Assembly: GCA_023132545.1 (NCBI GenBank)
Contig: JAGLYB010000032.1
Location: 1 to 25,902, forward strand
DNA: 25,902 nucleotides
Direction of reading: 5' to 3'
DNA from: Candidatus Bipolaricaulota bacterium
GTDB taxonomy: Bacteria > Bipolaricaulota > Bipolaricaulia > UBA7950 > UBA9294
Shown here: in pieces, positions 1 to 16,636 of the stretch
How positions within the stretch are numbered: the stretch's first letter is position 1
Layout of the letters: each line of letters opens with the position of its first letter
The notes under the pieces: generated by a model
Databases searched by the model: none
Told to the model about the DNA's origin: nothing
What the model saw: the letters and a program-made list of their open reading frames with translations, nothing else
Position numbers and translations under genes: made by a program

Positions 1-443
1 ACTGCCAAAGGCTCGATCAGTGCACCGGTTTCAAAGTCCATGCCATCAGGAAGTGGGAACAAATAGCGGGCGGGGACAATGATGAATTCCGCAAGGCATC
101 CATCCATTGTGACCCCCAGCCCTCTGCTGTTCGGACAGATGTTGTCGCGTTCCTCGTTGCAGCGGGAACAAACGCCGCATCCGAAATTCGGGCGCACGGT
201 TACGCGGGTTCCGACTGACCAGTCCTTAACATCGGAACCGATCGCATCGATCACTCCCGCACACTCATGTCCGAGAACAAACGGATACCCGTTGTTTCTC
301 CGCCCAGAGTAGAACTCCATGTCCGTCCCACAGATACCGACAACGTACACGGCAATCCGAACCTCACCCGGCCCAGGTTCGGGCAGCAGGCGGTTGGTCA
401 GGGTCAATCTCTCCGGAGCAACAAGTTGCGCGACTCTCATCAT
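1..443 (-). CDS. Zn-dependent medium-chain dehydrogenase (threonine/sorbitol dehydrogenase-like MDR), 5' part only; runs off the left edge
   Basis: Not in the ORF track; translated by hand from ATG at 443 (or 440): MMRVAQLVAPERL...VGICGTDMEFY...VLGHECAG...NFGCGVCSRCNEERDNICP...GALIEPLAV. Shows the catalytic-Zn motifs GICGTD and GHE, the structural-Zn motif CxxCxxC-x7-C, and the EP motif. Starts 3 nt after the upstream stop. Confidence 0.93.
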   Translation of the reverse strand, partial: MMRVAQLVAPERLTLTNRLLPEPGPGEVRIAVYVVGICGTDMEFYSGRRNNGYPFVLGHECAGVIDAIGSDVKDWSVGTRVTVRPNFGCGVCSRCNEERDNICPNSRGLGVTMDGCLAEFIIVPARYLFPLPDGMDFETGALIEPLA

Positions 444-446
444 GAT

Positions 447-1358
447 CTAGACAGGTATTGCCGCGTCGTCCGGCCCGGGGCCACTCTGCTTAGCTTCCGG
501 CAGATATTTGTGGACCATCTCAACGACAATGCTGGCCTGTTCTGCCATGGCGCGTCCTTCAGCAGCAGTGGTCCGAATGCCATGCCCGGAAACTGCCGAG
601 TTCCCGGTCTTGAGATAGACAGGGGATGCGACTCGAACCATCTCCGGTGCTTCGTAGCTACGGATAAATCCACCGGATGCCGGCGGATTGTCGGTGTGGA
701 GGTCAAGTGGTACATCCACTGCGCAGCGAAGGGCAGCCAGCATCGGAAGCTGGAGATCTCGAACCGGGTTGATCGTGTGCGCGCCCATGCTTTCAAGCAC
801 CTTGAACGCCGCCGGGTTGGCGTGGCCGCAATGTGCCGAGACCTTGTACTGGAGATCGGCTGGGAGTTCGCCGGCCTTTCGCATCTCGACCAGAACCCAC
901 AGCAGACCCTCATCGTAAACCAGGATTCCTCGGCAGCCAACGGACACGGCACGTTTGACGTCTTCGACGGCCCGGACGACCTGCTCCATCCCACGAAGCC
1001 GGTAGGCAATCCGTACTCCCTGGGGCGTCTGTACCGTTGCCCCTGTGTCATAGGGGGCTCGTGGCCCAACCGACAGGTTGACCGCCACACCCCGCTCCTT
1101 GGCTAGGGTACAGTAGTCGCGTAATTCACTGAGCGTATGACGGAAGATACCGTAGGTTTCGTCGATGCGGTTGATTGTGATGCCCAACTCCGTGGCCCGG
1201 TCAATCAATGCCTCGAATGCCTCGAACGAGTTGATCGTCGGCACTTCAATTCGGAAGTGCGCTCCATCAGGGAATGTTTTCTCTGACGTCGTCAACTCGT
1301 ATAGATCACCCTTGGGGAGACCCAGTTTCTCTAGACTCTTCCTCGTCTCATCGAACAT
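447..1358 (-). CDS. U32-family-like (TIM-barrel) conserved protein, function unknown
   Basis: Start moved to ATG 1358 (MFDETRK) because GGAGG lies 8 nt upstream. The C-terminal half (ANPAAFKVLESMGAHTINPVRDLQLPMLAALRCAVDVPLDLH) resembles proteins annotated as U32 family; recognised by eye only. Confidence 0.65.
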   Translation of the reverse strand: MFDETRKSLEKLGLPKGDLYELTTSEKTFPDGAHFRIEVPTINSFEAFEALIDRATELGITINRIDETYGIFRHTLSELRDYCTLAKERGVAVNLSVGPRAPYDTGATVQTPQGVRIAYRLRGMEQVVRAVEDVKRAVSVGCRGILVYDEGLLWVLVEMRKAGELPADLQYKVSAHCGHANPAAFKVLESMGAHTINPVRDLQLPMLAALRCAVDVPLDLHTDNPPASGGFIRSYEAPEMVRVASPVYLKTGNSAVSGHGIRTTAAEGRAMAEQASIVVEMVHKYLPEAKQSGPGPDDAAIPV

Positions 1359-1377
1359 AGTTCGATCCTCCTTCAAG

Positions 1378-1743
1378 TTATGCGTTATTTGGTTTTCGAT
1401 GTTGCTGAAGCGGCGGAGAATAGACCCACACCAGCTTCAGATCCTCATTTCCTGTATTCACAATCGAGTGCTTGACCCCTGGAGGCATGTAGATCGCCGT
1501 TCCAGCGACCAGATCCTGCTCACCCTCTTCGGTGATTAGGCGACCTTGGCCACTGACGATATACATCCCCTCTTCGGATTCATCGTGCGCGTGTTCAGGG
1601 ATCCGGCTTCCGACCTCGGTGACGTTCTGTCCCATGGAAAAGCCTTTGATCCCGACACTCATCTCCGAAAGCAAAAGCTTGGAGACCCGATTAGGTACCT
1701 TCTTGACGCCCTTGACATCGGCTGCGTCAACGACATATTTCAT
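1378..1743 (-). CDS. Cupin-domain protein (cupin_2 type, 3His-1Glu metal site)
   Basis: Motif 1 PEHAHDESEEGMYIVSGQG, motif 2 GTAIYMPPGVKHSIVN; SD AAGGAG upstream. Confidence 0.92.
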   Translation of the reverse strand: MKYVVDAADVKGVKKVPNRVSKLLLSEMSVGIKGFSMGQNVTEVGSRIPEHAHDESEEGMYIVSGQGRLITEEGEQDLVAGTAIYMPPGVKHSIVNTGNEDLKLVWVYSPPLQQHRKPNNA

Positions 1744-1759
1744 ACGTGCTCCTTCCTAC

Positions 1760-1788
1760 TTTGCTGCCCCAAAAATCCGGGGCGCAAA
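1760..1788 (-). other. Intergenic stem-loop between aor and the cupin gene
   Basis: TTTGC(T)GCCCC-AAAAATCC-GGGGCGCAAA inverted repeat; no U-tract, so more likely an mRNA stability/processing hairpin than a terminator. Confidence 0.5.
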
Positions 1789-1791
1789 CAG

Positions 1792-3522
1792 CTAGAACTT
1801 CTTTCGATTGGGTTCGATTTCCCATATGGACTGCATAGCATCTGCACTGATGTCGTACACCACGTTGTGCGGTGGTAGAGGCTCGACGCGCATGAACTCC
1901 GGCACATCGGCCAGCCGGTCTGAGACTCCGGCGGCTACGTTGAACGCGCGCTCTGTCTCCAACGTTGCGGCTGCTTCGTTCGCGATATCGGCAAATGAGA
2001 CGTTCGTGCCGAAACAGCTGTTCACCAACTCTGCAAGTAACTCTGCGTCTTCGACAAGCGGTCCACGCGCAAACAGGCAGAGTCCCGACATATCCAGGAT
2101 CATGGAGCGAATTTGTAGGGCTCTCGAGTTCTCGAGTTGCCCTTCAGCGGAAAGTGGATCGAGTGATCGGGCCGTACCGAATGCATTCCCGGCGGTATGA
2201 TCCGCACCCATCGGAGACGTCGCATACGTAACACCGTTTCCTTTGAGTGCCCGAGGATCGTACCCAGGAATTCCTTGCCCCTTGACTGTCGGCACACGGC
2301 GAACGCCGAGAGCCTGACCGGTAAACGCCGCTCCCTGACCAAGAATTCGTCCCAGGGGTGTCGCTTGTTCGATCTGTCGAAGAAGATCCGCGGCTGCCTC
2401 AACGTCGCCAAACTGGGCTAATCCGGCTTCCATAGCCACGCCAAGTGCACAGCCCATTTCGATTGCATCCAACCCTATGTCGTTGCACAGAGCATTGAGT
2501 TCGGCAATCCCATCCAGCGTGCCAATCCCGCAGTTCGACCCCAGAAGTGCGATGTTCTCGTACTGCAGCGAGGCTACCTTGCGGTGCCCGCCTTCGTCGG
2601 GGAAGACGTTGGAACAGCGGATCACACACCCAGCCATGCACGGCGTTCCAGATCGTCCGTCTCCGCCGCGGGCTGCAATGGTGTCCGCCAAGCACTTGCC
2701 AGTGATTCCATCGATCCCGTCAAACGATCCACTGCTGAAGTTGAGGGTAGGCAGTAGACCCAACTCATTGGATGTCGCAACGATTCCCGCAGTTCCGAAC
2801 TTCCGCCGCCCTTCGATTTTCGGGCTGGCCAGGATTAGTTCGGTGAAGCGGCGGGATGCCTTCTTAAGACAATCGGCATCCGCGCCGGCCTGCGGCGGCG
2901 CTCCCTCATCGTCGATCACGATTGCTTTGATCCCCTTTGATCCCATCACGGCACCGAGACCTCCACGTCCCGCATACCGGATCTGCACGCCAGTGACATC
3001 CGTTGTCGCAATGCCGGAGGCCGTCATGCGTAACTCCCCCGCCGGACCAATCACCAGAAAGCCACATCGCTCGCCGAACTGTTCGCGAAGTATCCCCAAC
3101 GTCTCGCGAACCGAAAGTCGATCCAACGTCAGATCGTCAACCCACGTTGCACCGTTTCGATCAATTCGAAGAACCCGCGAAGCCGGATCATCCGGTGCAT
3201 CTTCGATAATCAATGCTCGGACCCCGGCACGAGCCAGCGTCTGCCCGGCCTCTCCCCCAACGTTCGATTCCTTGATGCCACCGGTGAGCGGACTCTTCCC
3301 CCCAATAGACAGTCGACCACTCGTCGGAATCATTGTTCCACCAAGCCATCCTGGTGCAAAGATTAACTTGTTTCCACGTCCAAGCGGCTCGCACGTAGGA
3401 TCCACTTCGCGGGCCAAGATATTGGCGATTAACTGACGACCTCCCCACAGCGACATCTCGTCTGAAACGGGCGTCTGTTCAATTGCGCACGTTCGCGCGT
3501 TGACTCTCACAACTCGTTGCAT
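1792..3522 (-). CDS. aor: Aldehyde:ferredoxin oxidoreductase family (W/Mo-bispterin, 4Fe-4S)
   Basis: N-domain GKSPLTGGIKESNVGG and AGRGGLGAVMGSKGIKAI; Fe-S ligands CMAGCVIRC plus GLCLF; QYE and DIGLDAI pterin-proximal motifs; GADH; SD GAGGAG. Confidence 0.93.
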   Translation of the reverse strand: MQRVVRVNARTCAIEQTPVSDEMSLWGGRQLIANILAREVDPTCEPLGRGNKLIFAPGWLGGTMIPTSGRLSIGGKSPLTGGIKESNVGGEAGQTLARAGVRALIIEDAPDDPASRVLRIDRNGATWVDDLTLDRLSVRETLGILREQFGERCGFLVIGPAGELRMTASGIATTDVTGVQIRYAGRGGLGAVMGSKGIKAIVIDDEGAPPQAGADADCLKKASRRFTELILASPKIEGRRKFGTAGIVATSNELGLLPTLNFSSGSFDGIDGITGKCLADTIAARGGDGRSGTPCMAGCVIRCSNVFPDEGGHRKVASLQYENIALLGSNCGIGTLDGIAELNALCNDIGLDAIEMGCALGVAMEAGLAQFGDVEAAADLLRQIEQATPLGRILGQGAAFTGQALGVRRVPTVKGQGIPGYDPRALKGNGVTYATSPMGADHTAGNAFGTARSLDPLSAEGQLENSRALQIRSMILDMSGLCLFARGPLVEDAELLAELVNSCFGTNVSFADIANEAAATLETERAFNVAAGVSDRLADVPEFMRVEPLPPHNVVYDISADAMQSIWEIEPNRKKF

Positions 3523-3531
3523 CGATCCTCC

Positions 3532-5484
3532 TCAACCGTCCGTTCCGTCTTCTGTTCGCATCACTGCGCGCCATGCGGCACGCCAGCCTTCATACACCGC
3601 TTCCTGGATTCCCCGCGGGTCACGTGCATCACCCACAACAAACACGGGGAACGGGTCGTCCCTTAGCTCATTCGCTACTGTAAGATTCGATTCGGCTCCA
3701 ATGGCCACCACCACTCGGGTGGCCGGAAGTTCACTCTGTCGGCCGTCCTTCTCGATGAGTACAGTGTCGGATCGGATTTCGATTACACGAACATCGGTAC
3801 GAATTTCGACGTGTCCCTCTTCCAGATGCCGCAAGAGCGCCGCGAGAGAGATTGGCTCGCAGTCCCGTCCCACGTCATTTAGCAATTCGAGAACAGTGAC
3901 CTTGCCACCTCGTTCTGCACAGTAGGATGCGGTCTCGCAGCCGACCAATCCTCCACCAATCACCACGACCGTTTCTCCGGAGACTGAGTCGCAAGAGGCC
4001 AAAGCACGCTCAACCGTCCACACGTGTTTCTGTGAGATGCCGGCTACGGAGAGATGTTTTTGAATTCCTCCGATTGCCAGAATGACTGCATCCGGATGCA
4101 GTTCGCGGATGGTCTCCACCCTGACGTCGATTCCTGTTTTGATCTCTACACTTGCCGGAAGTGACTGGATCATGTCGTCAAGCAACCAGTCGATCTTTTC
4201 CTTGTGCGGCGGAACCTTGGCGTAGCGAAGCTGTCCCCCAAGTTCGGCTTCGCGTTCGAGCAAGACAACCTGCGCTCCAGCGATGGCCGCTGTTGCCGCG
4301 GCCTGCAATCCGCCTGGCCCAGCGCCAACCACAATGACTCGTCTCTCACTGCAGGGTTCGGGGTGTGCTTCCCCCTCGAATCCGACCTCGGGATTGACCG
4401 AACAGCAGATCGGCAGATCGTCAAAAACGCGTCGTTGAACACATCGATTACACGAAATGCAACGGTGGATTGTTGGAGCTTTGTCTGCGGCCGCCTTATT
4501 TGGCCATTGCGGATCAGCAATAAGGCCGCGCCCGATGGCCACGAAGTCCGCTGCCTCTTCAGCCAGCGTATGCTCCACGGTCTCAGGGTTCCGAAAAACA
4601 CCGACTGTAACAACCGGAATGTCCACTGCAGCCTTGATCGTCGCCGCAAGATACGCTCGCCAAGCCTCGGGATAGACCATCGGCTCAAGCTGTTTCTCAG
4701 GATTCGCCGCTGTAGCAGCCGAGATATGCAACGCGTCGATACCGGAGTCAACCAGGGCATGGCACAGCTCAACCGATTCGTCAAGAGCCCTGCCTTCAGG
4801 AAGAAACTCGTCCCCACTTAAACGGAATAACAGTGGATAGTCGCAGCCCACAGTTTGCCTCACTCTTCGTACTACATCGAGGGCAAACCGCCAGCGTTTC
4901 TCCTGAGTCCCTCCGAACGCATCGGTCCGCTGATTTGTAATCGGAGACAGGAACTGTGCAATCAGATATCCGTGTGCCCCATGGATTTCGACGGCATCGA
5001 ATCCAGCTCGCTTGGCCCGCACGGCGGCTCGCGCATAGCAGTCGATGAGACCCTCGATCTCGAATACCTCAAGCGGCACAGGGGGTAGAGCGTTCGCAGT
5101 CCATCCCACATCCGACGGTGCAACTGCGGGCACGCCGGTCCTCTGCGGTTTTGCTACAGCCCCAGCGTGGTTAATCTGAATTGCTACCGCGGCACCGCGC
5201 TCCCGCACAGCCCGCGTCAGCTCGAACAGTCCAGGCACATACCGGTCATGATTGATCCGTAATTGGACGGCTCCGTTGCCTCCTACCGGTTCATCAATTG
5301 ACGCGTTCTCGATGATGATCAATCCAGCCCCGCCTTGGGCACGCGCTGCGTAGTAAGCGATCATTTGAGGCGTAGGTTCACCATGAGCTGACGCGAAGTT
5401 GGTTGCCATCGCCGGCATGACAATGCGGTTTCGTACTTGCAGAGATCCGATGTTGCCCTGCCGGAACATCCGCTTGTCTGACAT
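3532..5484 (-). CDS. NADH:flavin oxidoreductase, OYE TIM barrel plus 4Fe-4S plus FAD/NAD domain (2,4-dienoyl-CoA reductase/BaiCD/enoate reductase architecture)
   Basis: NRIVMPAM, QINHAG, EIHGAHGYLIAQFLSP, GRGLIADP, CISCNRC...CSVNP, VVGAGPGG and VIGGGLVGCE Rossmann motifs. Start at ATG 5484 preferred (5508 in track overlaps livF). Confidence 0.92.
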   Translation of the reverse strand: MSDKRMFRQGNIGSLQVRNRIVMPAMATNFASAHGEPTPQMIAYYAARAQGGAGLIIIENASIDEPVGGNGAVQLRINHDRYVPGLFELTRAVRERGAAVAIQINHAGAVAKPQRTGVPAVAPSDVGWTANALPPVPLEVFEIEGLIDCYARAAVRAKRAGFDAVEIHGAHGYLIAQFLSPITNQRTDAFGGTQEKRWRFALDVVRRVRQTVGCDYPLLFRLSGDEFLPEGRALDESVELCHALVDSGIDALHISAATAANPEKQLEPMVYPEAWRAYLAATIKAAVDIPVVTVGVFRNPETVEHTLAEEAADFVAIGRGLIADPQWPNKAAADKAPTIHRCISCNRCVQRRVFDDLPICCSVNPEVGFEGEAHPEPCSERRVIVVGAGPGGLQAAATAAIAGAQVVLLEREAELGGQLRYAKVPPHKEKIDWLLDDMIQSLPASVEIKTGIDVRVETIRELHPDAVILAIGGIQKHLSVAGISQKHVWTVERALASCDSVSGETVVVIGGGLVGCETASYCAERGGKVTVLELLNDVGRDCEPISLAALLRHLEEGHVEIRTDVRVIEIRSDTVLIEKDGRQSELPATRVVVAIGAESNLTVANELRDDPFPVFVVGDARDPRGIQEAVYEGWRAAWRAVMRTEDGTDG

Positions 5485-5497
5485 CGAGGAAGGCTCT

Positions 5498-6211
5498 CTA
5501 CCCACCAAGGTAGAGGCGCTTCACCTCCTCGTTGTTGCGAATCTCTTCAGCAGGCCCCTCGTACTTGTTGCAGCCCGTCTCTAACACATAGGCATAATCC
5601 GACATCTTGAGACTTCGATCGGCGTTCTGCTCGACAATCAACATCGTGCTGCCTGCACTGCGGATTTCCTCAATCTTGTCAAAGACCTCATTCGCCATGA
5701 TTGGCGAGAGCCCCAATGACGGTTCATCAAGGAACATCAGGCGTGGATTGAGCAGCATCGCGCGGCCCATCTCAAGCGTCTGCATCTCACCACCGCTCAA
5801 GCTTCCGCCCTTTTGCTTGCTGCGTTCGCGAAGGAGAGGGAACAGATCGTACACGCGTTCGAGATCCTTCTGGATCCCCTTGCGATCCTTGCGGATGTAC
5901 GCGCCAAGTTCAAGATTCTCTCGCACCGTCATCAGCGGGAACACATGTCGTCCCTGCGGAACAAATGTAATCCCGAGACGAAGCAGCTCTGCCGGCGAAG
6001 GATTGGTCACGTCTTGACCATCGAATGTGACCGTGCCCTCACGCGCAGGCAGCAGTCCGAACAACACGCGGAATATCGTTGACTTCCCCGCACCGTTGGG
6101 ACCGATGATTGAAACCATCGTTCCCTCTTTCACATCAAGCGAGACCCCATTCAGGATGTCGAGTTCCTTGGAGTACCCGGCCACAATGTTTCTTGCCTTC
6201 AGCAATGCCAC
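5498..6211 (-). CDS. livF: HAAT (branched-chain amino acid-type) ABC transporter ATP-binding protein, LivF family
   Basis: GPNGAGKST Walker A, LSGGEMQ signature, LDEPSLGL, VEQN. Start moved to GTG 6211 (MALLKARNI), 1 nt after the livG stop, with GGAGGG upstream. Confidence 0.95.
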   Translation of the reverse strand: MALLKARNIVAGYSKELDILNGVSLDVKEGTMVSIIGPNGAGKSTIFRVLFGLLPAREGTVTFDGQDVTNPSPAELLRLGITFVPQGRHVFPLMTVRENLELGAYIRKDRKGIQKDLERVYDLFPLLRERSKQKGGSLSGGEMQTLEMGRAMLLNPRLMFLDEPSLGLSPIMANEVFDKIEEIRSAGSTMLIVEQNADRSLKMSDYAYVLETGCNKYEGPAEEIRNNEEVKRLYLGG

Positions 6212-6212
6212 G

Positions 6213-6953: not shown

Positions 6954-6963
6954 CCCATCATCC

Positions 6964-7950: not shown

Positions 7951-7952
7951 GG

Positions 7953-8813
7953 TTATCGCTCCTCCGTTCCAAGTAGCCCCTCTTTGCGGATCAGGATCAC
8001 TGCAATGAGGACAACCAAGACCACCAGTTCGCGGTACTCTGTAGAGATGTAAGCAGAGGTAAAGGTCTCAATAACGCCAACAAGGAAACCACCAAGAAGC
8101 GCACCCCGGATCTGGTTGAATCCGCCAATTGTCGCGGAATAGAACGCCTTCAAGCCCAGTTGTGCCCCCATGTCGAACCGCACCATGTACACGGGAGCGA
8201 TGAGCATCGCCGCAAATACCACGATCACGGCATTCATCACAAATACCATCGTGGTTACCGAAGAGATATTGATGCCCAGGATCTTGGCTGCTTCACGATT
8301 CTGCGCCACAGCCTGCATCGCCTTTCCCGGCTTCGTCCGTTGGATAAACAGGTTGATTGCCAAGATGAGCGCGATGGCAATGACGATCGTCCAAACATGC
8401 TGACGCGAGAGAATAATCGAGCCAAATCGGTACGGCGTCATGCCAAAGATCTGTGGAAATGGCTTACACTGCGCGGACCAGAAGGTTGAGATGGAATTGG
8501 ACGCAAGAAAGCTGAGGGCGATTGTCGCAACGATGATTGTGGTGTGGGAACGGTCGATCAGCGGCTGAATGATCCCCCGCTTGACGACGTATCCCAGCAA
8601 CACAGCCGAGATACCGACTGTTACCAACAGCGCTAAGATGAATGGAACGCCAAGGCACACGAGAATAAACATCAGCACTGCGGATACCGTGAGGAAATCT
8701 CCCTGCGCAAAGTTCACGGTTCGCGAGGCCTGCCACAATAGCGTAAACCCGATCGCCACCAGTGCGTAGATCGCTCCAATGGAGATTCCGGAAACAACTA
8801 ATTGGATGAACAT
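7953..8813 (-). CDS. livH: HAAT ABC transporter permease, LivH family
   Basis: GISIGAIYALVAIGFTL, VNFAQG, GKAMQAVAQNREAAKILGI, IGGFNQIRGALLGG. Start ATG 8813 (GTG 8819 also possible); overlaps the aroD 3' end. Confidence 0.95.
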   Translation of the reverse strand: MFIQLVVSGISIGAIYALVAIGFTLLWQASRTVNFAQGDFLTVSAVLMFILVCLGVPFILALLVTVGISAVLLGYVVKRGIIQPLIDRSHTTIIVATIALSFLASNSISTFWSAQCKPFPQIFGMTPYRFGSIILSRQHVWTIVIAIALILAINLFIQRTKPGKAMQAVAQNREAAKILGINISSVTTMVFVMNAVIVVFAAMLIAPVYMVRFDMGAQLGLKAFYSATIGGFNQIRGALLGGFLVGVIETFTSAYISTEYRELVVLVVLIAVILIRKEGLLGTEER

Positions 8814-9544
8814 GTCCACCTCTGTTCCGATATCAAGTCAATCAAATTTCGCGTCTCCTGAATCGTCAATTGGCCAGGAACTGTGCCTGGCTCCACGGCG
8901 CAGTACGTGAACGATGCGCCGAGAATGCATGCCATAGGTCTCGACGGTGCTCCGTGTGCTCCAAGGGCAATCGCCGCAAACGGCACATTGAGAAAGGATC
9001 GCGCGTCAAGCGCAACATTGAGTACAGTCAGAAGGTCTCTATACGACAGCGCGCGGACCGCCAGCTTGATGAGATCAGGTTCAAGAGCGGCCACATCATG
9101 CAATCCTTGCGTGAGATCACCATGACTCGGCGTCTCCTTCATGTTCTCATACCCGATGAGCGCCGGCACGTTGTGCTCCCGTGCTGATCTAAGCAGTTGG
9201 GAACGAAGCTCAGGCTCGGTGAAGAACTCGATGTCCACTGCGGTCGCCCCGGCATGTACTGCTGCCTGTAACCGTTCGATCCGCTCCTCCTCGGTGCCAG
9301 GGAAGAACCCGCCGAATTGCGGTGTTCGGCATGCCACGATGTGCGGAACACCGGCGCGCTGAACCAGCTCCTCTACGGCCTTTGAATCCGCTAGACGGTC
9401 GATGCGAAGCTCAACGATGTCAGCGCCAGCCGACCGAGCACGTTGCACACCCTCAAGCATGCGGTCTACGTTGTCCGCCAACGATGTTGCAACCAAGAGC
9501 GGCGTTGCTCCAACCGTTACCTCCCCGATGGCCACCGTCCTCAT
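8798..9544 (-). CDS. aroD: Type I 3-dehydroquinate dehydratase homologue with His143->Glu substitution
   Basis: DIVELRID, CRTPQFGG, VDIE, DLIKLAV (Schiff-base Lys160), LGAHGAPSR, PGQL. The usual (S/G)YH(N/D) reads GYEN. The symbol denotes the family; canonical activity is doubtful. Confidence 0.88.
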   Translation of the reverse strand: MRTVAIGEVTVGATPLLVATSLADNVDRMLEGVQRARSAGADIVELRIDRLADSKAVEELVQRAGVPHIVACRTPQFGGFFPGTEEERIERLQAAVHAGATAVDIEFFTEPELRSQLLRSAREHNVPALIGYENMKETPSHGDLTQGLHDVAALEPDLIKLAVRALSYRDLLTVLNVALDARSFLNVPFAAIALGAHGAPSRPMACILGASFTYCAVEPGTVPGQLTIQETRNLIDLISEQRWTCSSN

Positions 9545-9966: not shown

Positions 9967-10005
9967 TTTGCCCCTTTCAGTCATGGATTCCGGGTAGCCC
10001 GCGGA

Positions 10006-10401
10006 TCACCCGTAGTACCCCTTGCGGAGAATACAGACCTCGATGCCCTTGCCTTCTATGATCTTCAGGTTGTGTTTGATCCCCGGCGGGATGAAGACGG
10101 TTGCCGGGCTTTCGGCTTGATATGTCTCCTCTCCAAGAATGACCTCGAAACGCAGCCCTGCTTCAGGGAAGACATACGCCTGCGACACGTCGTGGGTGTG
10201 AACCTCAACGTAGTCCGGTCCCTTGTCCCCCTTGACCTCGATGTGATGCACGAAGATGTTGATGTCGGCACCATCAACCATTTCTCGATTGAGAAACGAA
10301 ACCAAAGGTCCCAGTTTCGACAGCCCGTTGGCGTTGTGGAATACCAAATCCCGGTCTTCCCAGTCAAACGGCTTGACGATCAGGTGTTCGTACTTACCCA
10401 T
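10006..10401 (-). CDS. Cupin-fold protein, paralogue A (HxH-x3-Q...H)
   Basis: VHTHDVSQAYVF and TVFIPPGIKHNL; start abuts the aroC stop; 79/131 positions identical to paralogue B without gaps (hand count). Confidence 0.87.
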   Translation of the reverse strand: MGKYEHLIVKPFDWEDRDLVFHNANGLSKLGPLVSFLNREMVDGADINIFVHHIEVKGDKGPDYVEVHTHDVSQAYVFPEAGLRFEVILGEETYQAESPATVFIPPGIKHNLKIIEGKGIEVCILRKGYYG

Positions 10402-11508
10402 CTATGTTTCCTTTCTGTGGCTCTGTGATTTTGCGAGCATTGCGTGATCGATCAGGGTCAAGGCAACCATGGCTTCGGCAATCGGAATCATCCGCGGGAC
10501 GATGGTCGGATCGGTCGCCGTCTTACAGCGGAAGGTCGCCGCTTCCATCCGAACCATGTCCACGGTTTCTTGCTCCGCCCCAATCGTAGGCGTTGGCTTC
10601 ACAGCCATTCGCAGAACAATGTCTTCTCCAGTTGAAATGCCGCCAAGAATCCCCCCGGCATGATTCGTTCGGAACCGTATCGTTCCAGACGATAGGTACG
10701 GCAGGTCGTTGTTCTCGCTGCCAACCATCTTTGCACAGCGGAACCCGGCCCCGATTTCCACGCCCTTGACACTGCCAATGCTCATCAGTGCACGCGCCAA
10801 GTTCGCATCCAATTTGTCAAAGACCGGCTCCCCCCATCCCACTGGGACGTTGTGTGCGATTACCTCGACGATGCCTCCCAGACTCTCTCCTTCGCGTTTC
10901 GCCTGGAGTGCCCGATCCAGCATCCGCTGTGCAGTCTCGGCATCCGGGCAGCGAACCGGTGGTACATCGGCGCCGGCGCGAATTTCTTCATACGACATGT
11001 CCGGTGCCTCGATGCCGGCGAGTGCTTTGGTGTAGGCGATGATCTCTACGTTCATCGAAGCAAGCAGCTTCTTGGCGATGCCTCCCGCAGCAACACGCAT
11101 CGCAGTTTCTCGGCCGTTGGCGCGTCCGTCAGCGACCCAATCACGGTAAGGGCCATGCTTGGCGAAATATGTGTAGGTCGCGTGCCCCGGCTTGATGACA
11201 GTCTTTTCGTCCATATAAGAGGCAATTCGTTCCGGTGTTGCCCATTCGTTGTCAATGATCAACCCAATGGGCGCGCCTGTCGTAAACCCATCTAGGGTTC
11301 CGGATAGAATGCGAACCCGATCCGATTCCACTCGTGGTGTAGCAATCTCGCTCTGCCCCGGCTTACGCCGATCCAGATCATGCTGGATGTCTGCCTCGAC
11401 CAAGGGAAGTCCTGCAGGGACACCATCGACAATGCCGACAAGCGCTGTGCCAAACGCCTCGCCCGACGTTGTTATGCGAAACGCCCGCCCAAACGTGTTC
11501 CCCAACAT
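10402..11508 (-). CDS. aroC: Chorismate synthase homologue with remodelled substrate site
   Basis: MLGNTFG..FRITT.GE, RRKPGQS, PGHA, RET, KLDANLARALMSIGSVKGVEIGAGF, TNHAGGILGGISTG, KPTPTI (flavin-binding motifs intact), but GEAFG, RANGRET and ATDP replace GESHG, RSSARET and RHDP. The symbol denotes the family. Confidence 0.9.
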   Translation of the reverse strand: MLGNTFGRAFRITTSGEAFGTALVGIVDGVPAGLPLVEADIQHDLDRRKPGQSEIATPRVESDRVRILSGTLDGFTTGAPIGLIIDNEWATPERIASYMDEKTVIKPGHATYTYFAKHGPYRDWVADGRANGRETAMRVAAGGIAKKLLASMNVEIIAYTKALAGIEAPDMSYEEIRAGADVPPVRCPDAETAQRMLDRALQAKREGESLGGIVEVIAHNVPVGWGEPVFDKLDANLARALMSIGSVKGVEIGAGFRCAKMVGSENNDLPYLSSGTIRFRTNHAGGILGGISTGEDIVLRMAVKPTPTIGAEQETVDMVRMEAATFRCKTATDPTIVPRMIPIAEAMVALTLIDHAMLAKSQSHRKET

Positions 11509-11517
11509 GGCAACCTC

Positions 11518-12804
11518 CTATTCTTCATGCACCGTCATTCGTGCACCAATTGCCTGCATCGACGACACGAATGTTGGATAGGTAATGCGCACTGATTCCG
11601 CGCTGTTGATCCGCGTTTCTCCCTCGGCAATCAATCCGGCAACAGCAAGAGCCATGATCACACGATGATCATCATGACCATTGACACTAGCGCCGTGAAG
11701 CACGCTTTTACGGATCATGAGACCGTCCGGCTTCTCTTCGATCTTCGCCCCCATCTTCGATAACTCAGCACACATGACGGCAATGCGATCGGTCTCTTTG
11801 ATTCGCGCCATAGCAACGTTCTCCAGCACGGTCTCTCCCTCGCAGCAACAGCCGACAACAGCCAGCATTGGAAGTGCATCCGGTGTGTTCGACAGATCCA
11901 TTCGGATCCCACGAAGAGATTCGCTGCGCTGAATGCGAAGCTCGCTACCACGAATATCAAGCGTTGCCCCCATCTGCCGTAGATACTCAAACACTTGTTT
12001 GTCTCCCTGGCTGTCGTTGAAATCGAGACCTTGAAGAAGGACGTCGGGGTCAGCCGCAAGTATGGCCGCACAACCTGGGAACGTTGCTGATGAGAAATCG
12101 GCAGCAATCGGTCGTTCAAACGGCGTGTACGATTGCGGGCCTATGATCTCAAACTGTGTCAGTGCGTCGTTGGATGTGACCTCGATACCACAGGCACGAA
12201 GCCAGTCCAGCGTCATTCGTACGTAGCCCTTCTCGTTCATCACACCGTCAACATTCAAGCGAATCGTTCCAGTAACCAGCGGCGCAGCTAGCAATAGCGG
12301 AGTGAGGTAAATCGACGTCGTACCGTTCACAGTAGCTTGCCCAGCATGCAATGGGCCGCGAATCGTGATCGGTGCCGTGCCGTCCAGTGATGCCGATTCA
12401 ACAGTTGCTCCCAGTTGCTGAAGAGACTGAAGCAGTGGCCCAAACGGACGTGTACGAATGCTCTCATCACCATCAAGCGTAATGGGGACATCACCCGTCG
12501 CACAGACGGCAATCAGATTGCCGAGCGTGGTGCCTGAATTGCCAACATGGATAGACAGGGAGGACGACGGGAGCCGTCCTCCAGTACCGTCGATGATCCA
12601 CCGATCGTTGCGTTGATCGATCGGTGCACCCAGTTGCCGACAGCAATCGACTGCCGACAGCGTATCTGCAGCATCCAATGGATGAAGGATCTGCGATTGC
12701 CCATCAGCGAGAAACCCCATGATAACGCCGCGAATGGTATGCGACTTCGAAGCCGGGATGCGGATTGACCCGCGAAGCGATGAGCGTTTGACTGCAAGGA
12801 ACAC
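11518..12804 (-). CDS. aroA: EPSP synthase (3-phosphoshikimate 1-carboxyvinyltransferase) homologue with active-site substitutions
   Basis: PASKSHTIR, GNSGTT, RTRP, ADFSSA, PDALP, RIKETDRI, DDHRV; GTG start with GGGGAGG SD. SSQ reads TSI. The symbol denotes the family. Confidence 0.92.
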   Translation of the reverse strand: MFLAVKRSSLRGSIRIPASKSHTIRGVIMGFLADGQSQILHPLDAADTLSAVDCCRQLGAPIDQRNDRWIIDGTGGRLPSSSLSIHVGNSGTTLGNLIAVCATGDVPITLDGDESIRTRPFGPLLQSLQQLGATVESASLDGTAPITIRGPLHAGQATVNGTTSIYLTPLLLAAPLVTGTIRLNVDGVMNEKGYVRMTLDWLRACGIEVTSNDALTQFEIIGPQSYTPFERPIAADFSSATFPGCAAILAADPDVLLQGLDFNDSQGDKQVFEYLRQMGATLDIRGSELRIQRSESLRGIRMDLSNTPDALPMLAVVGCCCEGETVLENVAMARIKETDRIAVMCAELSKMGAKIEEKPDGLMIRKSVLHGASVNGHDDHRVIMALAVAGLIAEGETRINSAESVRITYPTFVSSMQAIGARMTVHEE

Positions 12805-12840
12805 GTCGTGCCTCCCCTAGTTTTCTTTGCTCAAAAACCT

Positions 12841-12864
12841 AAGGGGACGTTTGGCATTCCCCTT
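12841..12864 (-). terminator. Hairpin downstream of the binding-protein gene, possible leaky terminator
   Basis: Minus strand AAGGGGA-ATGCCAAACG-TCCCCTT followed by AGGTTTTT. Confidence 0.45.
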
Positions 12865-12890
12865 TGAAGCGTCGTTGTACAGCATCTCAG

Positions 12891-12946
12891 AAGGCCCGCG
12901 GAGACCGGTGTTGTGAACGGTTGTTCCCCGCTTCTCCGCAGGCCTT
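12891..12946 (-). repeat. 14-bp inverted repeat (13/14 match) right after the binding-protein gene
   Basis: AAGGCCCGCGGAGA (12891-12904) and TCTCCGCAGGCCTT (12933-12946); typical position for an mRNA-stabilising stem-loop. Confidence 0.7.
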
Positions 12947-12963
12947 ATAGTCAGGCTATGATT

Positions 12964-14100
12964 CTAGCCGTCTTGTGACGAGATGATCTTGATGATGACC
13001 TGTTCGCCGTTCTCGATCTTCACGAGGAAGAGATTGCGGTCAACAGTTCCATCTTCTCGATACGAGGTGTTGAGGAACACGTTTGGCTCCATCTCCGTCG
13101 TAATCGTGTTTTCGTGGAGCCACGTTCGCACAGCATCCGCATCAAACGCACCGACTGCTTCGATCGCTGTCTTGAGCGTGTATACGGCAACGTATCCCTT
13201 CATCGCATCGTGCGACGGGATTTCGTCGTACAACAGCTGGAACATTGCGGCAAAATCAGCGATCGGCTCGTACTTGTACGACCATGTCGCCGCGCCCATC
13301 ACGCCTTCCATTGCCTCGCCGCCCAATTCAACCGCAAGAGCACTGAGAAGCGGGCTGTATCCAACAACACTCAAATCGACGCCCAGCGTTTTCAGCTGGA
13401 TCATGAACCGCGCATTCTCCTCTTCGTGACCATAGAGGAAGATCGTGTCGGCTCCCATTCCCTGAATTCGAGCGATTTCACCGGCAAAGTCCGCCTGAGC
13501 TGTTTGGATTGCAATCCCTTCGAAGCCTAGACCGAATTCCTCGGCAGCCGCAGACAGAATGTCGCGACCGTCGCTGCCCATCTCATCATTGGTATAAACC
13601 ATGACAATCTGTTCAACACCGAGATCTTCACCCATCCAGCGGACCAGCCACGGGAATACATTCCGGTTAATCGGCGACGTCGCGAACACGTTATAGTTGC
13701 CTTGTTCGTAGATGCTCGTGGACGTCGAGCCGACCATCTGGATGATTCCCGCCTCTTCTACTGTCGCCATGTTGGCGATCGTCGAGGAGCTGTAGATCGT
13801 TCCGAGAATGGCAAATGGTTCCTTGGTGATCGCGTACTGCATCGCGGCTATGGAGATTGCCGGTCGGCTTTCCGTGTCAACGAGGAAGTACTCGATCTGG
13901 CGACCCAATATGCCGCCAGCGTTGTTGATCTCGCTGAATGCTAGCAGGATTCCGTCGCGCCAGTGCGCGCCGTGACTTGCACCATGACCACTCAATTCAC
14001 AGACGATACCAAATTCGACCGGACCTTCATCTTGTGCCATTAGTGTGCCGCTGAAAACCATGACAAGTAGAACGGCAATTAAACCAAATTTTCGGAGCAT
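12964..14100 (-). CDS. HAAT ABC transporter periplasmic substrate-binding protein (LivK/Peripla_BP_6 family)
   Basis: Signal peptide MLRKFGLIAVLLVMVFSGTLMA-QD (no lipobox); GIVCELSG, EINNAGGILGRQIE...DTES, GTIYSSS, ND..G, ADF..EIARI; SD AAGGAGGT. Confidence 0.93.
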   Translation of the reverse strand: MLRKFGLIAVLLVMVFSGTLMAQDEGPVEFGIVCELSGHGASHGAHWRDGILLAFSEINNAGGILGRQIEYFLVDTESRPAISIAAMQYAITKEPFAILGTIYSSSTIANMATVEEAGIIQMVGSTSTSIYEQGNYNVFATSPINRNVFPWLVRWMGEDLGVEQIVMVYTNDEMGSDGRDILSAAAEEFGLGFEGIAIQTAQADFAGEIARIQGMGADTIFLYGHEEENARFMIQLKTLGVDLSVVGYSPLLSALAVELGGEAMEGVMGAATWSYKYEPIADFAAMFQLLYDEIPSHDAMKGYVAVYTLKTAIEAVGAFDADAVRTWLHENTITTEMEPNVFLNTSYREDGTVDRNLFLVKIENGEQVIIKIISSQDG

Positions 14101-14223
14101 CCTTGACCTCCTTGCTCACTCTTTACTCGATGTTCTGCCAGAAAGATCAGCGCGTTTGCTCGTTTACCTCCTTCACGATTTCAAAGTACAGAATGGGAGA
14201 TCGCCACACATAATGGAGCGGGG

Positions 14224-14266
14224 AAAGAAAAAACGAACCGCCACGCTTATGCGTTGACCGTTCGTT
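14224..14266 (-). terminator. Intrinsic terminator inside the operon leader (attenuator candidate)
   Basis: RNA AACGAAC-GGUCA-ACGC-AUAA-GCGU-GGCG-GUUCGUU-UUUUCUUU, between the predicted promoter and the first start codon. Confidence 0.65.
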
Positions 14267-14317
14267 ATCACCATCCGCCCCCAGATCCCTGGAGAGGCCG
14301 TGGCGCCATTTCATCCT

Positions 14318-14334
14318 TTTTGACATAGTCAAAA
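14318..14334. promoter_or_regulatory. Perfect palindrome TTTTGAC-ATA-GTCAAAA, candidate operator
   Basis: 7-3-7 inverted repeat about 22-38 nt downstream of the predicted transcription start. Confidence 0.55.
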
Positions 14335-14362
14335 CGTCATCTATATATTCCACAACAGACAC

Positions 14363-14391
14363 ACCATAGAGGAAAAAAACCGTGCTGTCAA
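14363..14391 (-). promoter_or_regulatory. Sigma70-type promoter of the transporter/aro-like operon
   Basis: TTGACA (14391-14386) - 17 nt - TATGGT (14368-14363); predicted TSS about 14356. Confidence 0.75.
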
Positions 14392-15343: not shown

Positions 15344-15374
15344 AGAACCTCCTCCCAAGAGGAACCTAGATCTA

Positions 15375-15403
15375 ACCATACTTTACCAGAGGACTCCATA
15401 CAA
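15375..15403 (-). promoter_or_regulatory. Putative sigma70 promoter of the membrane-protein gene
   Basis: TTGTAT - 17 nt - TATGGT, about 30 nt upstream of the start codon. Confidence 0.45.
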
Positions 15404-16624: not shown

Positions 16625-16636
16625 GGATTCACTCTT

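What the first reader, a model, noticed from the sequence alone, without database searches (positions are those of the whole stretch)
1..14391. Candidate new pathway: rewired aroA/aroC/aroD cassette inside an uptake and anaerobic redox operon
Seen: one promoter and 15 co-oriented, mostly abutting genes combining a HAAT ABC importer, three shikimate-pathway homologues, three cupins, a dienoyl-reductase-type OYE, AOR, a U32-like protein and a Zn-dehydrogenase. No DAHP synthase, aroB, aroE or shikimate kinase is visible in the window. Each aro homologue has non-conservative, multi-nucleotide codon changes at conserved positions while reading frames and other catalytic residues are intact. Known: biosynthetic aro operons are not normally built around an importer. 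A precedent for repurposing is Streptomyces cyclohexanecarboxyl-CoA synthesis (ansatrienin/phoslactomycin clusters), which pairs an EPSP-synthase homologue with a 2,4-dienoyl-CoA-reductase homologue. Inference: most altered residues act at ring C3 (Schiff-base chemistry in AroD, 3-phosphate binding in AroA and AroC), so the cassette may process an imported quinate/shikimate-like acid lacking a 3-phosphate or carrying another C3 group, for catabolism, as an electron sink, or for an unknown metabolite.
Basis: partly seen in the sequence, partly recalled or inferred. Interest (0 to 1): 0.92.

Follow-up and report, generated by a model that had tools for sequence, protein, structure and literature searches.

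The report
Repurposed shikimate enzymes in uptake operon
An uncultured cold-seep bacterium that cannot make aromatic amino acids keeps altered copies of three shikimate-pathway enzymes inside a conserved, transcribed nutrient-uptake and ring-breakdown operon, which points to an undescribed oxygen-free route for consuming a quinate- or shikimate-like ring acid.

Summary
Fifteen co-oriented minus-strand genes (3-14100) sit behind one promoter-like site. They encode a HAAT ABC importer, AroA-, AroC- and AroD-like proteins, three cupins, an OYE/Fe-S flavoenzyme, AOR, a U32-like TIM barrel and a Zn-dehydrogenase.

The operon runs past the window's left end. On contig C94 it continues with the rest of that dehydrogenase, an IolN-type cyclic beta-diketone hydrolase and a second Zn-dehydrogenase.

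The same gene order recurs in six other species genomes of the phylum (probably Bipolaricaulota) and in 17 metagenome contigs. dN/dS is at most 0.22. A core (importer, AroA-like, two cupins, AroD-like, IolN-like, AOR, cupin, U32-like) also occurs on archaeal-looking contigs.

The six other cassette genomes lack AroE, TrpE-family, prephenate dehydratase and canonical AroA/AroC matches. The aro homologues are therefore not biosynthetic.

Family-wide signature changes are:
- AroC-like: Ser/Tyr/Arg losses at positions I assign from memory to the EPSP-phosphate site.
- AroA-like: R100G and Q171I.
- AroD-like: both members of the Glu86-His143 relay changed, Lys170 kept.

The best reading is anaerobic catabolism or dehydroxylation of an imported hydroaromatic acid. 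The substrate and the AroA/AroC roles remain inferred. First readers noted the same U32-like gene next to cupin and creatininase genes on other DNA.

The parts
14363..14391 (-). Promoter-like site (TTGACA, 17 nt spacer, TATGGT)
   Evidence: The -35 and -10 elements are conserved in six orthologous loci. Metatranscriptome contig depth falls to about zero upstream of about 14477.
14320..14332 (-). Inverted repeat TTGAC-TAT-GTCAA just downstream of the -10. Likely an operator for an unidentified regulator.
   Evidence: The repeat region is conserved, with some substitutions, in all six aligned leaders. It has a single match in the window, against 0.03 expected by chance. There is no Rfam hit in the leader.
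12964..14100 (-). HAAT-family substrate-binding protein
   Evidence: Peripla_BP_6, E 1.4e-55. The nearest solved relatives are Leu/Ile/Val binders, but the LivK Tyr202 and Glu226 equivalents read His and Ser. It is the most abundant part in two cold-seep RNA libraries.
11518..12804 (-). AroA-like enolpyruvyl transferase, variant class (R100G, Q171I in E. coli numbering)
   Evidence: The same two changes occur in 62 homologues, including those on archaeal-looking contigs.
10402..11508 (-). AroC-like flavoenzyme. Changes by own numbering: S18A, (H/Y)19F, D89W, R106K, S131N, R331A, (H/R)332T.
   Evidence: The 42-member clade shows these changes at 98-100% frequency.
10006..10401 (-). Small cupin A (HxH...Q...H metal motif, unnamed family)
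   Evidence: No Pfam hit. Cupin fold by the protein atlas. It is 59-62% identical to the archaeal-contig copies.
9544..9984 (-). Small cupin B, a paralogue of cupin A
8798..9544 (-). AroD-like type I dehydroquinase fold. Lys170, Arg213 and Gln236 equivalents are kept; Glu86 is Phe and His143 is Glu.
   Evidence: The Glu86-His143 relay is described in PMC11796326.
5498..8819 (-). Two HAAT permeases (7953-8819, 6964-7950) and two ATPases (6213-6953, 5498-6280)
3532..5508 (-). OYE plus FAD/NAD(P) flavoenzyme of the 2-enoate / 2,4-dienoyl reductase / BaiCD class
   Evidence: BaiCD model 464 bits against a cut-off of 825, so it is not an equivalog.
1792..3522 (-). Aldehyde:ferredoxin oxidoreductase (tungstopterin family)
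   Evidence: AFOR_N and AFOR_C.
1378..1743 (-). Cupin C (Cupin_2)
447..1376 (-). U32-like TIM-barrel protein (likely start at 1358). Only two conserved Cys. The nearest folds are class II aldolases and lyases.
3..443 (-). N-terminal part of Zn-dependent dehydrogenase ADH1. The gene and the operon continue on contig C94 (ADH1, IolN-type hydrolase, ADH2).

Best explanation
The stretch is most of a roughly 17-gene accessory operon for oxygen-free use of an imported carbocyclic (hydroaromatic) carboxylic acid of the quinate / shikimate / dehydroshikimate type. The host shows no matches for four other aromatic amino acid pathway markers.

Shown:
- The operon is conserved in order, under purifying selection and patchily distributed.
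- Close relatives of it appear in cold-seep RNA libraries.
- Its AroA-, AroC- and AroD-like genes are neofunctionalised paralogues with family-wide signature substitutions.
- It ends with an IolN-type cyclic beta-diketone hydrolase flanked by two Zn-dehydrogenases.

Inferred mechanism:
1. The HAAT system imports the acid.
2. The Zn-dehydrogenases oxidise ring hydroxyls to a ketone and then a 1,3-diketone.
3. The AroD-like enzyme still forms a Lys Schiff base with a 3-keto ring acid. It uses Glu143 instead of the Glu86-His143 relay to add or remove water, or to open the ring by retro-aldol cleavage.
4. The IolN-type enzyme opens the diketone ring hydrolytically.
5. The cupins (isomerase-type) and the aldolase-like U32-like barrel process the linear oxo-acid.
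6. AOR oxidises the resulting aldehyde with ferredoxin.
7. The AroA-like enzyme is proposed to spend PEP to turn a ring hydroxyl into an enolpyruvyl ether, which is a good leaving group.
8. The AroC-like flavoenzyme has lost several Ser/Tyr/Arg residues that I place at the EPSP-phosphate site. It is proposed to catalyse a conjugate elimination on the non-phosphorylated ring.
9. The OYE-type reductase reduces the resulting enoate. Together, steps 7-9 amount to CoA- and ATP-independent dehydroxylation that also serves as an electron sink.
For: Conservation and selection:
- The same 15-gene order occurs in G011, G148, G146, G079, G137 and GCA_963986125, and in 17 metagenome loci.
- dS is saturated and dN/dS is 0.03-0.22 for all genes tested.

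Not biosynthetic:
- Of 184 genomes of the phylum, 7 carry the variant AroC and 66 a canonical one. None carries both.
- The six other cassette genomes (85-94% complete) have no AroE, TrpE-family, PDT or canonical AroA match. Four controls with a canonical AroC have AroE, PDT and canonical AroA.

Paralogy:
- Archaeal-looking contig L029 has the cassette AroD-like gene (GYENM) and also a canonical AroD (SYHNF), AroE and GHMP kinase.

Ring chemistry:
- The creatininase-fold gene scores 517 bits on NF041098, 3-dehydro-scyllo-inosose hydrolase (cut-off 245).
- That roughly 515-bit class occurs in 6 of the 7 cassette genomes at full length (a 281-bit fragment at a contig end in G135) and in only one other of 184 genomes.
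- In the window's own genome it lies at the matching end of contig C94.
- The flanking dehydrogenases resemble IolM, at 175-210 bits.
- The AroD-like protein keeps Lys170 and the DHQ-binding Arg and Gln residues.

Signature changes.

A recurring importer plus AroC-like plus AroA-like plus OYE/ADH/AOR module in other lineages: L026, L028, L203.

Other proteins:
- The U32-like model (pLDDT 95) is closest to class II aldolases and lyases.
- The SBP lacks the residue that binds an alpha-ammonium group.

Expression:
- RNA-library contigs 90-99% alike cover the SBP strongly and the downstream genes weakly. They stop near the promoter.
Against: - No substrate is identified. Nothing ties the SBP to quinate or shikimate.
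- The IolN model is defined on an inositol-derived diketone. A non-carboxylated cyclitol therefore cannot be excluded.
- The roles proposed for the AroA-like and AroC-like enzymes are chemical inference only.
- The archaeal-looking cassettes lack the AroC-like and OYE genes yet keep the AroA-like gene. AroA-like therefore does not strictly need AroC-like.
- One importer-linked AroC (P0051) keeps the Ser and Arg residues. Importer linkage does not always go with their loss.
- The AroA-like protein keeps most PEP- and S3P-site residues and passes the aroA equivalog cut-off.
- The window's own genome is only 57% complete.
- RNA libraries can contain DNA, and the matching contigs come from relatives, not this strain.
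Confidence: 0.5

Rival explanations
1. Same architecture, different substrate. The operon degrades a cyclitol or other carbocycle without the C1 carboxylate (an inositol, an O-methyl-inositol, a carbasugar or an aminocyclitol). It would be an elaborated version of the Thermotoga-type IolM/IolN route. The aro-like enzymes would supply dehydration and hydroxyl activation.
For: - The IolN equivalog-level score is 517 bits.
- The dehydrogenases are IolM-like.
- The structural neighbours of cupin A include KduI/IolB isomerases.
- A related cluster (L028) adjoins a corrinoid methyltransferase pair, as expected for methyl ethers.
Against: - The AroD-like protein keeps the Arg213 equivalent that I take to bind the DHQ carboxylate.
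- HAAT binding proteins usually take carboxylates or amides, from my own knowledge.
- 45 genomes of the phylum already have a separate, ordinary IolM-IolN pair of a different subclass (about 300 bits).
- No IolG- or IolO-type gene is in the operon.
Confidence: 0.15
2. A purely reductive electron-sink pathway. Imported shikimate or quinate is dehydroxylated and reduced to cyclohexene or cyclohexane carboxylate and on to the aldehyde and alcohol. This would be a CoA-free counterpart of Streptomyces cyclohexanecarboxyl-CoA synthesis. Ring cleavage would be a side branch or absent.
For: - The module of AroC-like, AroA-like, OYE, ADH, AOR and importer recurs without IolN, cupins or AroD-like genes in L026 and L203.
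- OYE-type enoate reductases and AOR are the classic acid- and enoate-reducing enzymes of anaerobes, from my own knowledge.
- The Streptomyces pathway pairs an EPSP-synthase homologue with a dienoyl-CoA-reductase homologue. I recall this and could not verify it in the library.
Against: - The archaeal-looking core lacks the OYE and AroC-like genes.
- The IolN-type hydrolase is almost perfectly co-distributed with the cassette in the phylum.
- No CoA ligase or acyl-CoA dehydrogenase is present.
Confidence: 0.15
3. A salvage route that turns an imported shikimate-pathway intermediate into chorismate or a prephenate-like compound. The product would not serve amino acid synthesis. It would be the organic oxygen donor or co-substrate for the U32-like enzyme, as prephenate is for U32 hydroxylases.
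For: - U32 proteins UbiU/V, TrhP and RlhA depend on prephenate (PMC10990095).
- The U32-like protein is the best conserved protein of the cassette: 83-91% identity within the phylum and 61-67% to the archaeal-looking copies.
- The aro homologues are the only ones found in these genomes.
Against: - The U32 match is below Pfam's cut-off (19.5 against 22.4 bits).
- Only two Cys are conserved, so there is no 4-Cys Fe-S motif.
- The fold search ranks class II aldolases above the one solved U32 protein.
- The same family sits next to hydantoinase A/B and aminotransferases elsewhere.
- No kinase, AroE or chorismate mutase is present.
- The AroC-like protein has lost the residues expected to hold the EPSP phosphate.
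Confidence: 0.08
4. Ordinary, merely divergent biosynthetic aroA, aroC and aroD genes that happen to sit in a transporter operon.
For: - aroA and aroC pass the NCBIfam equivalog cut-offs.
- The nearest AroC class (GESYG) also lacks the 'invariant' His yet sits beside DAHP synthase and DHQ synthase, or beside AroA, in ordinary contexts.
Against: - No AroE, TrpE-family or PDT match in six cassette genomes. aroB and aroK were searched only in the window's own 57%-complete genome, where they are also missing.
- The substitutions are specific to the cassette clades and fixed.
- The cassette coexists with canonical aro genes on L029.
- aroD falls below its cut-off.
Confidence: 0.04

Closest known systems
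Thermotoga maritima-type myo-inositol pathway (IolG, IolM, IolN, IolO), as captured by NCBIfam NF041097 and NF041098
   Same: - A Zn-dependent dehydrogenase makes a cyclic 1,3-diketone.
- A creatininase-fold hydrolase opens the ring.
- The cassette hydrolase scores 517 bits on the IolN model.
- No oxygen, CoA or thiamine enzyme is needed.
   Different: - The two dehydrogenases do not reach the IolM cut-off (175-210 bits against 450).
- No IolG or IolO is present.
- The importer is of HAAT type.
- Three shikimate-pathway paralogues, three cupins, AOR and an OYE enzyme are added.
- The phylum's ordinary IolM-IolN pairs belong to another subclass.
Biosynthetic shikimate pathway enzymes AroD (type I), AroA and AroC
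   Same: - The folds and most ligand-binding residues are the same.
- AroA-like and AroC-like pass the equivalog HMM cut-offs.
- The AroA-AroC gene pair resembles the widespread adjacent pair of the nearest ordinary classes.
   Different: - The signature catalytic or ligand residues are replaced.
- No AroE or chorismate consumer is found in the six cassette genomes tested; no aroB or aroK in the window's own partial genome.
- The genes are embedded in an importer and redox operon.
Aerobic quinate/shikimate catabolism (qui/qsu/qa clusters: quinate dehydrogenase, catabolic dehydroquinase, dehydroshikimate dehydratase to protocatechuate). From my own knowledge.
   Same: A dehydrogenase and a dedicated catabolic dehydroquinase paralogue are clustered with a transporter for the same kind of ring acid.
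   Different: - That route aromatises the ring and then needs oxygenases.
- Here there is no recognisable dehydroshikimate dehydratase or dioxygenase.
- Instead there are a hydrolytic ring opener, AOR, an enoate-type reductase, and AroA- and AroC-like enzymes.
Streptomyces cyclohexanecarboxyl-CoA pathway (ansatrienin and phoslactomycin clusters). Recalled, not verified here.
   Same: It pairs an EPSP-synthase homologue with a 2,4-dienoyl-reductase-type flavoenzyme to dehydroxylate and reduce shikimate.
   Different: - That pathway is CoA-dependent and biosynthetic, with a CoA ligase and an acyl-CoA dehydrogenase.
- The cassette has neither.
- The cassette is linked to an importer, AOR and a ring hydrolase.
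U32 prephenate-dependent O2-independent hydroxylases (UbiU/UbiV, TrhP, RlhA; PMC10990095)
   Same: There is a distant U32-like TIM barrel encoded next to chorismate-pathway homologues.
   Different: - The match is below the family threshold.
- There is no 4-Cys Fe-S motif.
- The fold neighbours are aldolase-like.

Membership tests
EPSP synthase (AroA, TIGR01356) | Whole-protein HMM score above the curated cut-off | tested here: met
   379.4 bits against 287.25.
EPSP synthase (AroA, TIGR01356) | Catalytic and ligand residues K22, R27, R124, D313, K340, E341, R344, H385, R386 | tested here: met
   Alignment to 3nvs.
EPSP synthase (AroA, TIGR01356) | Gln171 (PEP/glyphosate site) and Arg100 of the GNxGTxxR loop | tested here: not met
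   Ile and Gly in all 62 variant homologues. Gln in 100% and Arg in 85% of the 59 nearest canonical homologues.
EPSP synthase (AroA, TIGR01356) | Works within a shikimate pathway (kinase, AroE and chorismate consumers present) | tested here: not met
   No AroE, TrpE-family or PDT match in six cassette genomes. No aroK or aroB in the window's own partial genome.
Chorismate synthase (AroC, NF003793 / TIGR00033) | Whole-protein HMM score above the cut-off | tested here: met
   404.5 bits against 321.
Chorismate synthase (AroC, NF003793 / TIGR00033) | GESHG signature, with Ser and a His placed near the EPSP phosphate | tested here: not met
   GEAFG in 40 of 42 clade members and GEAYG in 2. The nearest ordinary class has GESYG. 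The role of the His is taken from PMC7144000.
Chorismate synthase (AroC, NF003793 / TIGR00033) | Conserved Arg and Ser of RPGHAD, GRSS/GRAS and R(H/R)D motifs | tested here: not met
   R106K, S131N, R331A and 332T, fixed in the clade.
Type I 3-dehydroquinate dehydratase (AroD, TIGR01093) | Whole-protein HMM score above the cut-off | tested here: not met
   130.3 bits against 139.3.
Type I 3-dehydroquinate dehydratase (AroD, TIGR01093) | Schiff-base Lys170 and substrate-binding Glu46, Arg48, Arg82, Arg213, Gln236 | tested here: met
   Alignments.
Type I 3-dehydroquinate dehydratase (AroD, TIGR01093) | Glu86-His143 proton relay | tested here: not met
   Position 86 is Phe (Leu or Met in the archaeal-looking copies) and position 143 is Glu. 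A canonical copy on L029 keeps the His (SYHNF). The relay is described in PMC11796326.
3-dehydro-scyllo-inosose hydrolase IolN (NF041098) | Whole-protein HMM score above the cut-off | tested here: met
   516.8 bits (orthologue in G148) and 518.9 bits (own genome, contig C94) against 245.
3-dehydro-scyllo-inosose hydrolase IolN (NF041098) | Partnered with IolM, IolG and IolO of the inositol route | tested here: not met
   The flanking dehydrogenases score 175-210 bits against the IolM cut-off of 450. No Gfo/Idh/MocA or AP_endonuc_2 gene is in the operon.
U32 family (PF01136) prephenate-dependent hydroxylases | Pfam gathering score and the 4-Cys Fe-S motif | tested here: not met
   19.5 bits against 22.4. 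Only two Cys are conserved across bacterial and archaeal-looking copies.
BaiCD / 2,4-dienoyl-CoA reductase class Fe-S flavoenzymes | OYE domain plus FAD/NAD(P) domain architecture | tested here: met
   Oxidored_FMN at residues 19-341 and Pyr_redox_2 at 390-612.
BaiCD / 2,4-dienoyl-CoA reductase class Fe-S flavoenzymes | Equivalog-level score to a characterised member | tested here: not met
   BaiCD 464 bits against 825. Mycofactocin OYE 454 bits against 793.

The most novel reading that the evidence does not exclude
The cassette encodes a previously unrecognised, widely shared (Bacteria and Archaea) strategy for oxygen-, ATP- and CoA-independent breakdown of hydroaromatic ring acids. An EPSP-synthase paralogue uses PEP to convert a ring hydroxyl into an enolpyruvyl leaving group. 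A phosphate-blind chorismate-synthase paralogue or small cupins eliminate it. A dehydroquinase paralogue with a relocated catalytic carboxylate and an IolN-type hydrolase then open the ring. In effect this would be a catabolic mirror of the shikimate pathway, and it could supply the long-missing genes for anaerobic quinate and shikimate turnover in sediments and guts.
Probability: 0.2. Interest if true: 0.9.

Novelty: new variant of a known kind. Interest (0 to 1): 0.72.

Why it matters
Quinate and shikimate are abundant plant ring acids. As far as I know and could search, no genes have been assigned to their fate without oxygen.

A conserved operon points to a new catabolic logic. It recruits paralogues of three textbook biosynthetic enzymes, in organisms that have dropped the biosynthetic pathway, and combines them with a hydrolytic ring opener and tungsten and flavin redox enzymes.

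It also matters for annotation. The aroA and aroC copies pass curated equivalog thresholds. Automated pipelines will therefore call these organisms partly competent for the shikimate pathway, and sensitive to glyphosate, when they probably are not.

The signature motifs can be used to separate these paralogues in databases:
- AroA-like: TSIY plus GNSGTTLGN.
- AroC-like: GEA[FY]G.
- AroD-like: [GAT]YEN with loss of the EGG glutamate.

Tried and rejected
- **Rfam scan of the leader and upstream region:** only a chance miRNA hit, so no known riboswitch.
- **Genome-contig scan with the variant-AroA alignment:** saturated by the shared KSHTIR pattern. It returned only one cassette locus plus 79 ordinary AroA loci. 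The result was still useful for showing that AroA-AroC(GESYG) pairs are common.
- **Link between the window's DinB/MST gene (15672-16196) and the MST genes inside the L026 and L203 clusters:** no similarity and no conservation next to other cassettes. Rejected.
- **The 232-aa membrane ORF at 14681-15379:** not conserved next to other cassettes.
- **Tree of AroC homologues:** it did not resolve whether the cassette clade and the GEAYG clade share one origin. The cassette clade came out as sister to all other sampled sequences.
- **Literature searches** for this gene combination, for anaerobic quinate/shikimate genes, for IolN, and for the EPSP-synthase homologue of the cyclohexanecarboxylate pathway: nothing on the cassette.
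- **Context of distant U32-like relatives:** hydantoinase A/B, aminotransferase IV and asparagine synthase gave no consistent functional clue.
- **Fold search of the U32-like model:** only generic TIM-barrel lyase and aldolase neighbours, TM 0.45-0.52.
- **Decay hypothesis:** rejected by dN/dS.
- **Plain biosynthesis:** rejected by the absence of partner genes in cassette genomes.

Full report
**Source**

The window is contig C95 of a 0.97-Mb metagenome-assembled genome that is 57% complete. It comes from a cold-seep metagenome. Names attached to close homologues place it in Candidatus Bipolaricaulota.

**Observation**

ORF listing and family scans confirm fifteen co-oriented minus-strand genes from 14100 down to base 3. 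Gaps range from -68 to +159 nt. The order is: HAAT substrate-binding protein, AroA-like, AroC-like, two small paralogous cupins, AroD-like, two permeases, two ATPases, an OYE plus FAD/NAD(P) flavoenzyme, AOR, a Cupin_2 protein, a weakly U32-like protein and the start of a Zn-dehydrogenase. A promoter-like site lies at 14391-14363. The rest of the window holds unrelated genes: a two-component system, ZnuABC, GNAT, ThiF and others.

**The operon is longer than the window**

In orthologous loci the Zn-dehydrogenase (332 aa) is followed by a creatininase-fold gene and a second Zn-dehydrogenase. After that the strand changes. The creatininase-fold protein scores 517 bits on NCBIfam NF041098, 3-dehydro-scyllo-inosose hydrolase IolN, against a cut-off of 245. 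The two dehydrogenases score 175-210 bits on the IolM model, whose cut-off is 450. In the window's own genome these three genes lie at the end of contig C94, which abuts the window's left end.

**Conservation and selection**

The same order is found in G011, G148, G146, G079, G137 and GCA_963986125, at 55-92% protein identity. It is also found in 17 metagenome contigs. dS is saturated and dN/dS is 0.03-0.22 for every gene tested, so this is not decay.

The leaders share the -35 and -10 elements. They also share an inverted repeat (TTGAC-TAT-GTCAA in the window, 14320-14332), which is probably an operator. No Rfam family matches.

In two cold-seep metatranscriptome libraries, contigs 90-99% alike cover the binding-protein gene at high depth and the downstream genes at low depth. 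They stop near the promoter. This suggests that relatives of the operon are transcribed in situ. The usual caveat applies that RNA libraries can carry DNA.

**Not biosynthetic**

Among 184 species genomes of the phylum, 7 carry the variant AroC (at least 71% identity) and 66 carry a canonical one of about 40% identity. None has both. All seven other genomes of the window's own genus have neither.

The six other cassette genomes (85-94% complete) have no match to Shikimate_dh_N, Chorismate_bind or PDT. Their only EPSP_synthase-family genes are MurA and the variant. Four control genomes with a canonical AroC have AroE, PDT and canonical AroA, and two of them have TrpE. The window's own genome also lacks aroB, aroK and aroE matches.

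But there is no pathway around these genes.

**A core shared with archaeal-looking contigs**

L029 and L030 carry TrmB, archaeal DHQ synthase II and a GHMP shikimate kinase. On these contigs the importer is followed by AroA-like, two cupins and AroD-like genes. These run divergently from IolN-like, AOR plus ferredoxin, cupin C and the U32-like gene. There is no AroC-like or OYE gene.

Identities to the window's proteins are:

| Protein | Identity to window |
|---|---|
| U32-like | 61-67% |
| Cupins A/B | 54-67% |
| AroA-like | 52% |
| AroD-like | 40% |
| SBP | 36% |

L029 also has a canonical AroD, AroE and kinase 3 kb away. The cassette genes are therefore paralogues.

**Which substitutions are specific**

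AroC-like. Compared with both the nearest class and canonical AroC from the phylum, the 42-member clade has S18A, D89W, R106K, S131N and R331A fixed. It has Phe where the nearest class has Tyr and canonical enzymes have His, and Thr at position 332. The His is described as lying near the EPSP phosphate (PMC7144000).

The His-to-Tyr step is not special. GESYG enzymes sit beside DAHP synthase and DHQ synthase, or next to AroA, in ordinary contexts in many phyla.

AroA-like. S197E, N336A/M and K411I/V are shared by the roughly 50%-identical ordinary class. The variant-specific changes are R100G and Q171I, plus four minor ones. Q171 is listed among the residues contacting ligands in the glyphosate site (PMC10305266). 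I assign it to the PEP site from memory of the E. coli structure.

AroD-like. Lys170 and the substrate-binding Arg and Gln residues are kept. Both members of the Glu86-His143 relay are changed (PMC11796326): position 86 is Phe, Leu or Met, and position 143 is Glu. This holds in bacterial and archaeal-looking copies alike. A 'YEN' type also occurs alone in archaeal housekeeping contexts.

**Related modules**

A second AroC-like group (GEAYG, or GESYG with the Arg residues intact) is linked in other bacteria to HAAT importers. It is also linked to a different divergent AroA-like protein (KYYTHR, no Arg100, Gln171 kept), OYE, ADH, AOR and an MST/DinB protein. In one case it adjoins a corrinoid methyltransferase pair. 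Importer-linked AroA/AroC pairs are therefore recurrent. They do not always show loss of the Ser and Arg residues.

**Other proteins**

- The U32-like protein is the best conserved in the cassette. It has only two conserved Cys. Its family has 859 representatives at E up to 0.001.
- It models confidently as a TIM barrel (pLDDT 95). The nearest folds are class II aldolases, methylisocitrate lyase and one U32 protein, at TM about 0.5.
- Elsewhere the same family sits beside hydantoinase A/B genes.
- Cupins A and B have an HxH..Q..H site and belong to an unnamed family.
- The SBP resembles Leu/Ile/Val binders but lacks the Glu that I recall as binding the alpha-ammonium group.

**Interpretation**

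What is shown:
- A conserved, selected accessory operon whose close relatives appear in RNA libraries.
- Three neofunctionalised aro paralogues.
- An IolN-type ring hydrolase.

What is inferred:
- The importer brings in a hydroaromatic carboxylate.
- The dehydrogenases make a keto ring and then a 1,3-diketo ring.
- The AroD-like enzyme handles a 3-keto ring acid through its Lys Schiff base.
- The IolN-type enzyme opens the ring.
- The cupins, the aldolase-like barrel and AOR process the linear product.
- The AroA-like, AroC-like and OYE enzymes form a PEP-driven elimination and reduction branch.

The last item is the weakest step. Rival readings differ mainly in substrate (cyclitol), direction (pure electron sink) or purpose (chorismate- or prephenate-like co-substrate for the U32-like enzyme; PMC10990095).

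**Novelty**

None of my literature searches found this gene combination, or any assigned genes for anaerobic quinate or shikimate use. Earlier first-reader notes of this scan saw the same U32-like gene between cupin and creatininase genes, or heading a Liv-type transporter operon, in other genomes. I did not check those notes.

Noticed in passing
window 14320-14332 (and the aligned leaders of L017, L020, L022-L024): An inverted repeat TTGAC-TAT-GTCAA lies about 30 nt downstream of the -10 element, and the region is conserved in all six leaders. It looks like an operator for a dimeric regulator. No regulator gene is conserved next to the operon.
   Followed up: partly
window about 14170-14180 (alignment A2, columns about 317-326): A second conserved GAAGGAGGTG Shine-Dalgarno-like element lies about 80 nt upstream of the binding-protein start codon, in addition to the gene's own ribosome-binding site. 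It could serve a short leader ORF or an alternative start.
   Followed up: no
loci L035, L036, L045, L049, L055, L067, L070, L077, L088, L090, L093, L096, L099: Adjacent AroA-AroC pairs in which AroC has GESYG instead of the 'invariant' GESHG. They are widespread in Elusimicrobiota, Omnitrophota, Planctomycetota and Armatimonadota. They also occur in reduced-genome archaea labelled Woesearchaeota and Nanoarchaeota, where a full shikimate pathway would be unexpected.
   Followed up: partly
loci L059, L063, L066, L076, L080, L084: Bacteroidales- and Planctomycetota-type AroC genes next to AroA begin with VAGGSYQ in place of the GESHG signature. This is a third variant of the supposedly invariant motif.
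   Followed up: no
L139:7168-7905 and L143:4874-5536: Type I dehydroquinase-like genes with the His-to-Glu change (AYENF, TYENF) stand alone in archaeal housekeeping neighbourhoods (NurA, ELP3, TtuA). The 'YEN' subfamily is therefore wider than the cassette.
   Followed up: partly
L023:356-2349 (G146, downstream of the operon): In one genome the operon region is followed on the same strand by an Ldh_2-family dehydrogenase and a class I fumarate hydratase subunit. This would fit oxaloacetate or malate as a product, but it is not seen in the other loci.
   Followed up: no
G079:C1 = L032 (NCBI record CAZEYM010000001.1): A cassette-bearing contig that the genome collection places in the window's phylum is labelled 'uncultured Thermotogaceae bacterium' in its public record. 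The cause is either mislabelling or a binning problem.
   Followed up: no
window 18740-20077 and 16457-18672: An unnamed 445-aa ORF with no Pfam family lies between an OmpR/HisKA two-component pair and a ZnuABC-type metal importer. It is unrelated to the cassette.
   Followed up: no
G029:C172:2299-3222 (L119): This is the one non-cassette genome of the phylum with a high-scoring (528 bits) IolN. The gene is 57% identical to the cassette type and sits next to a 413-aa Zn-dehydrogenase. It may be an intermediate between the ordinary and the cassette IolN subclasses.
   Followed up: partly
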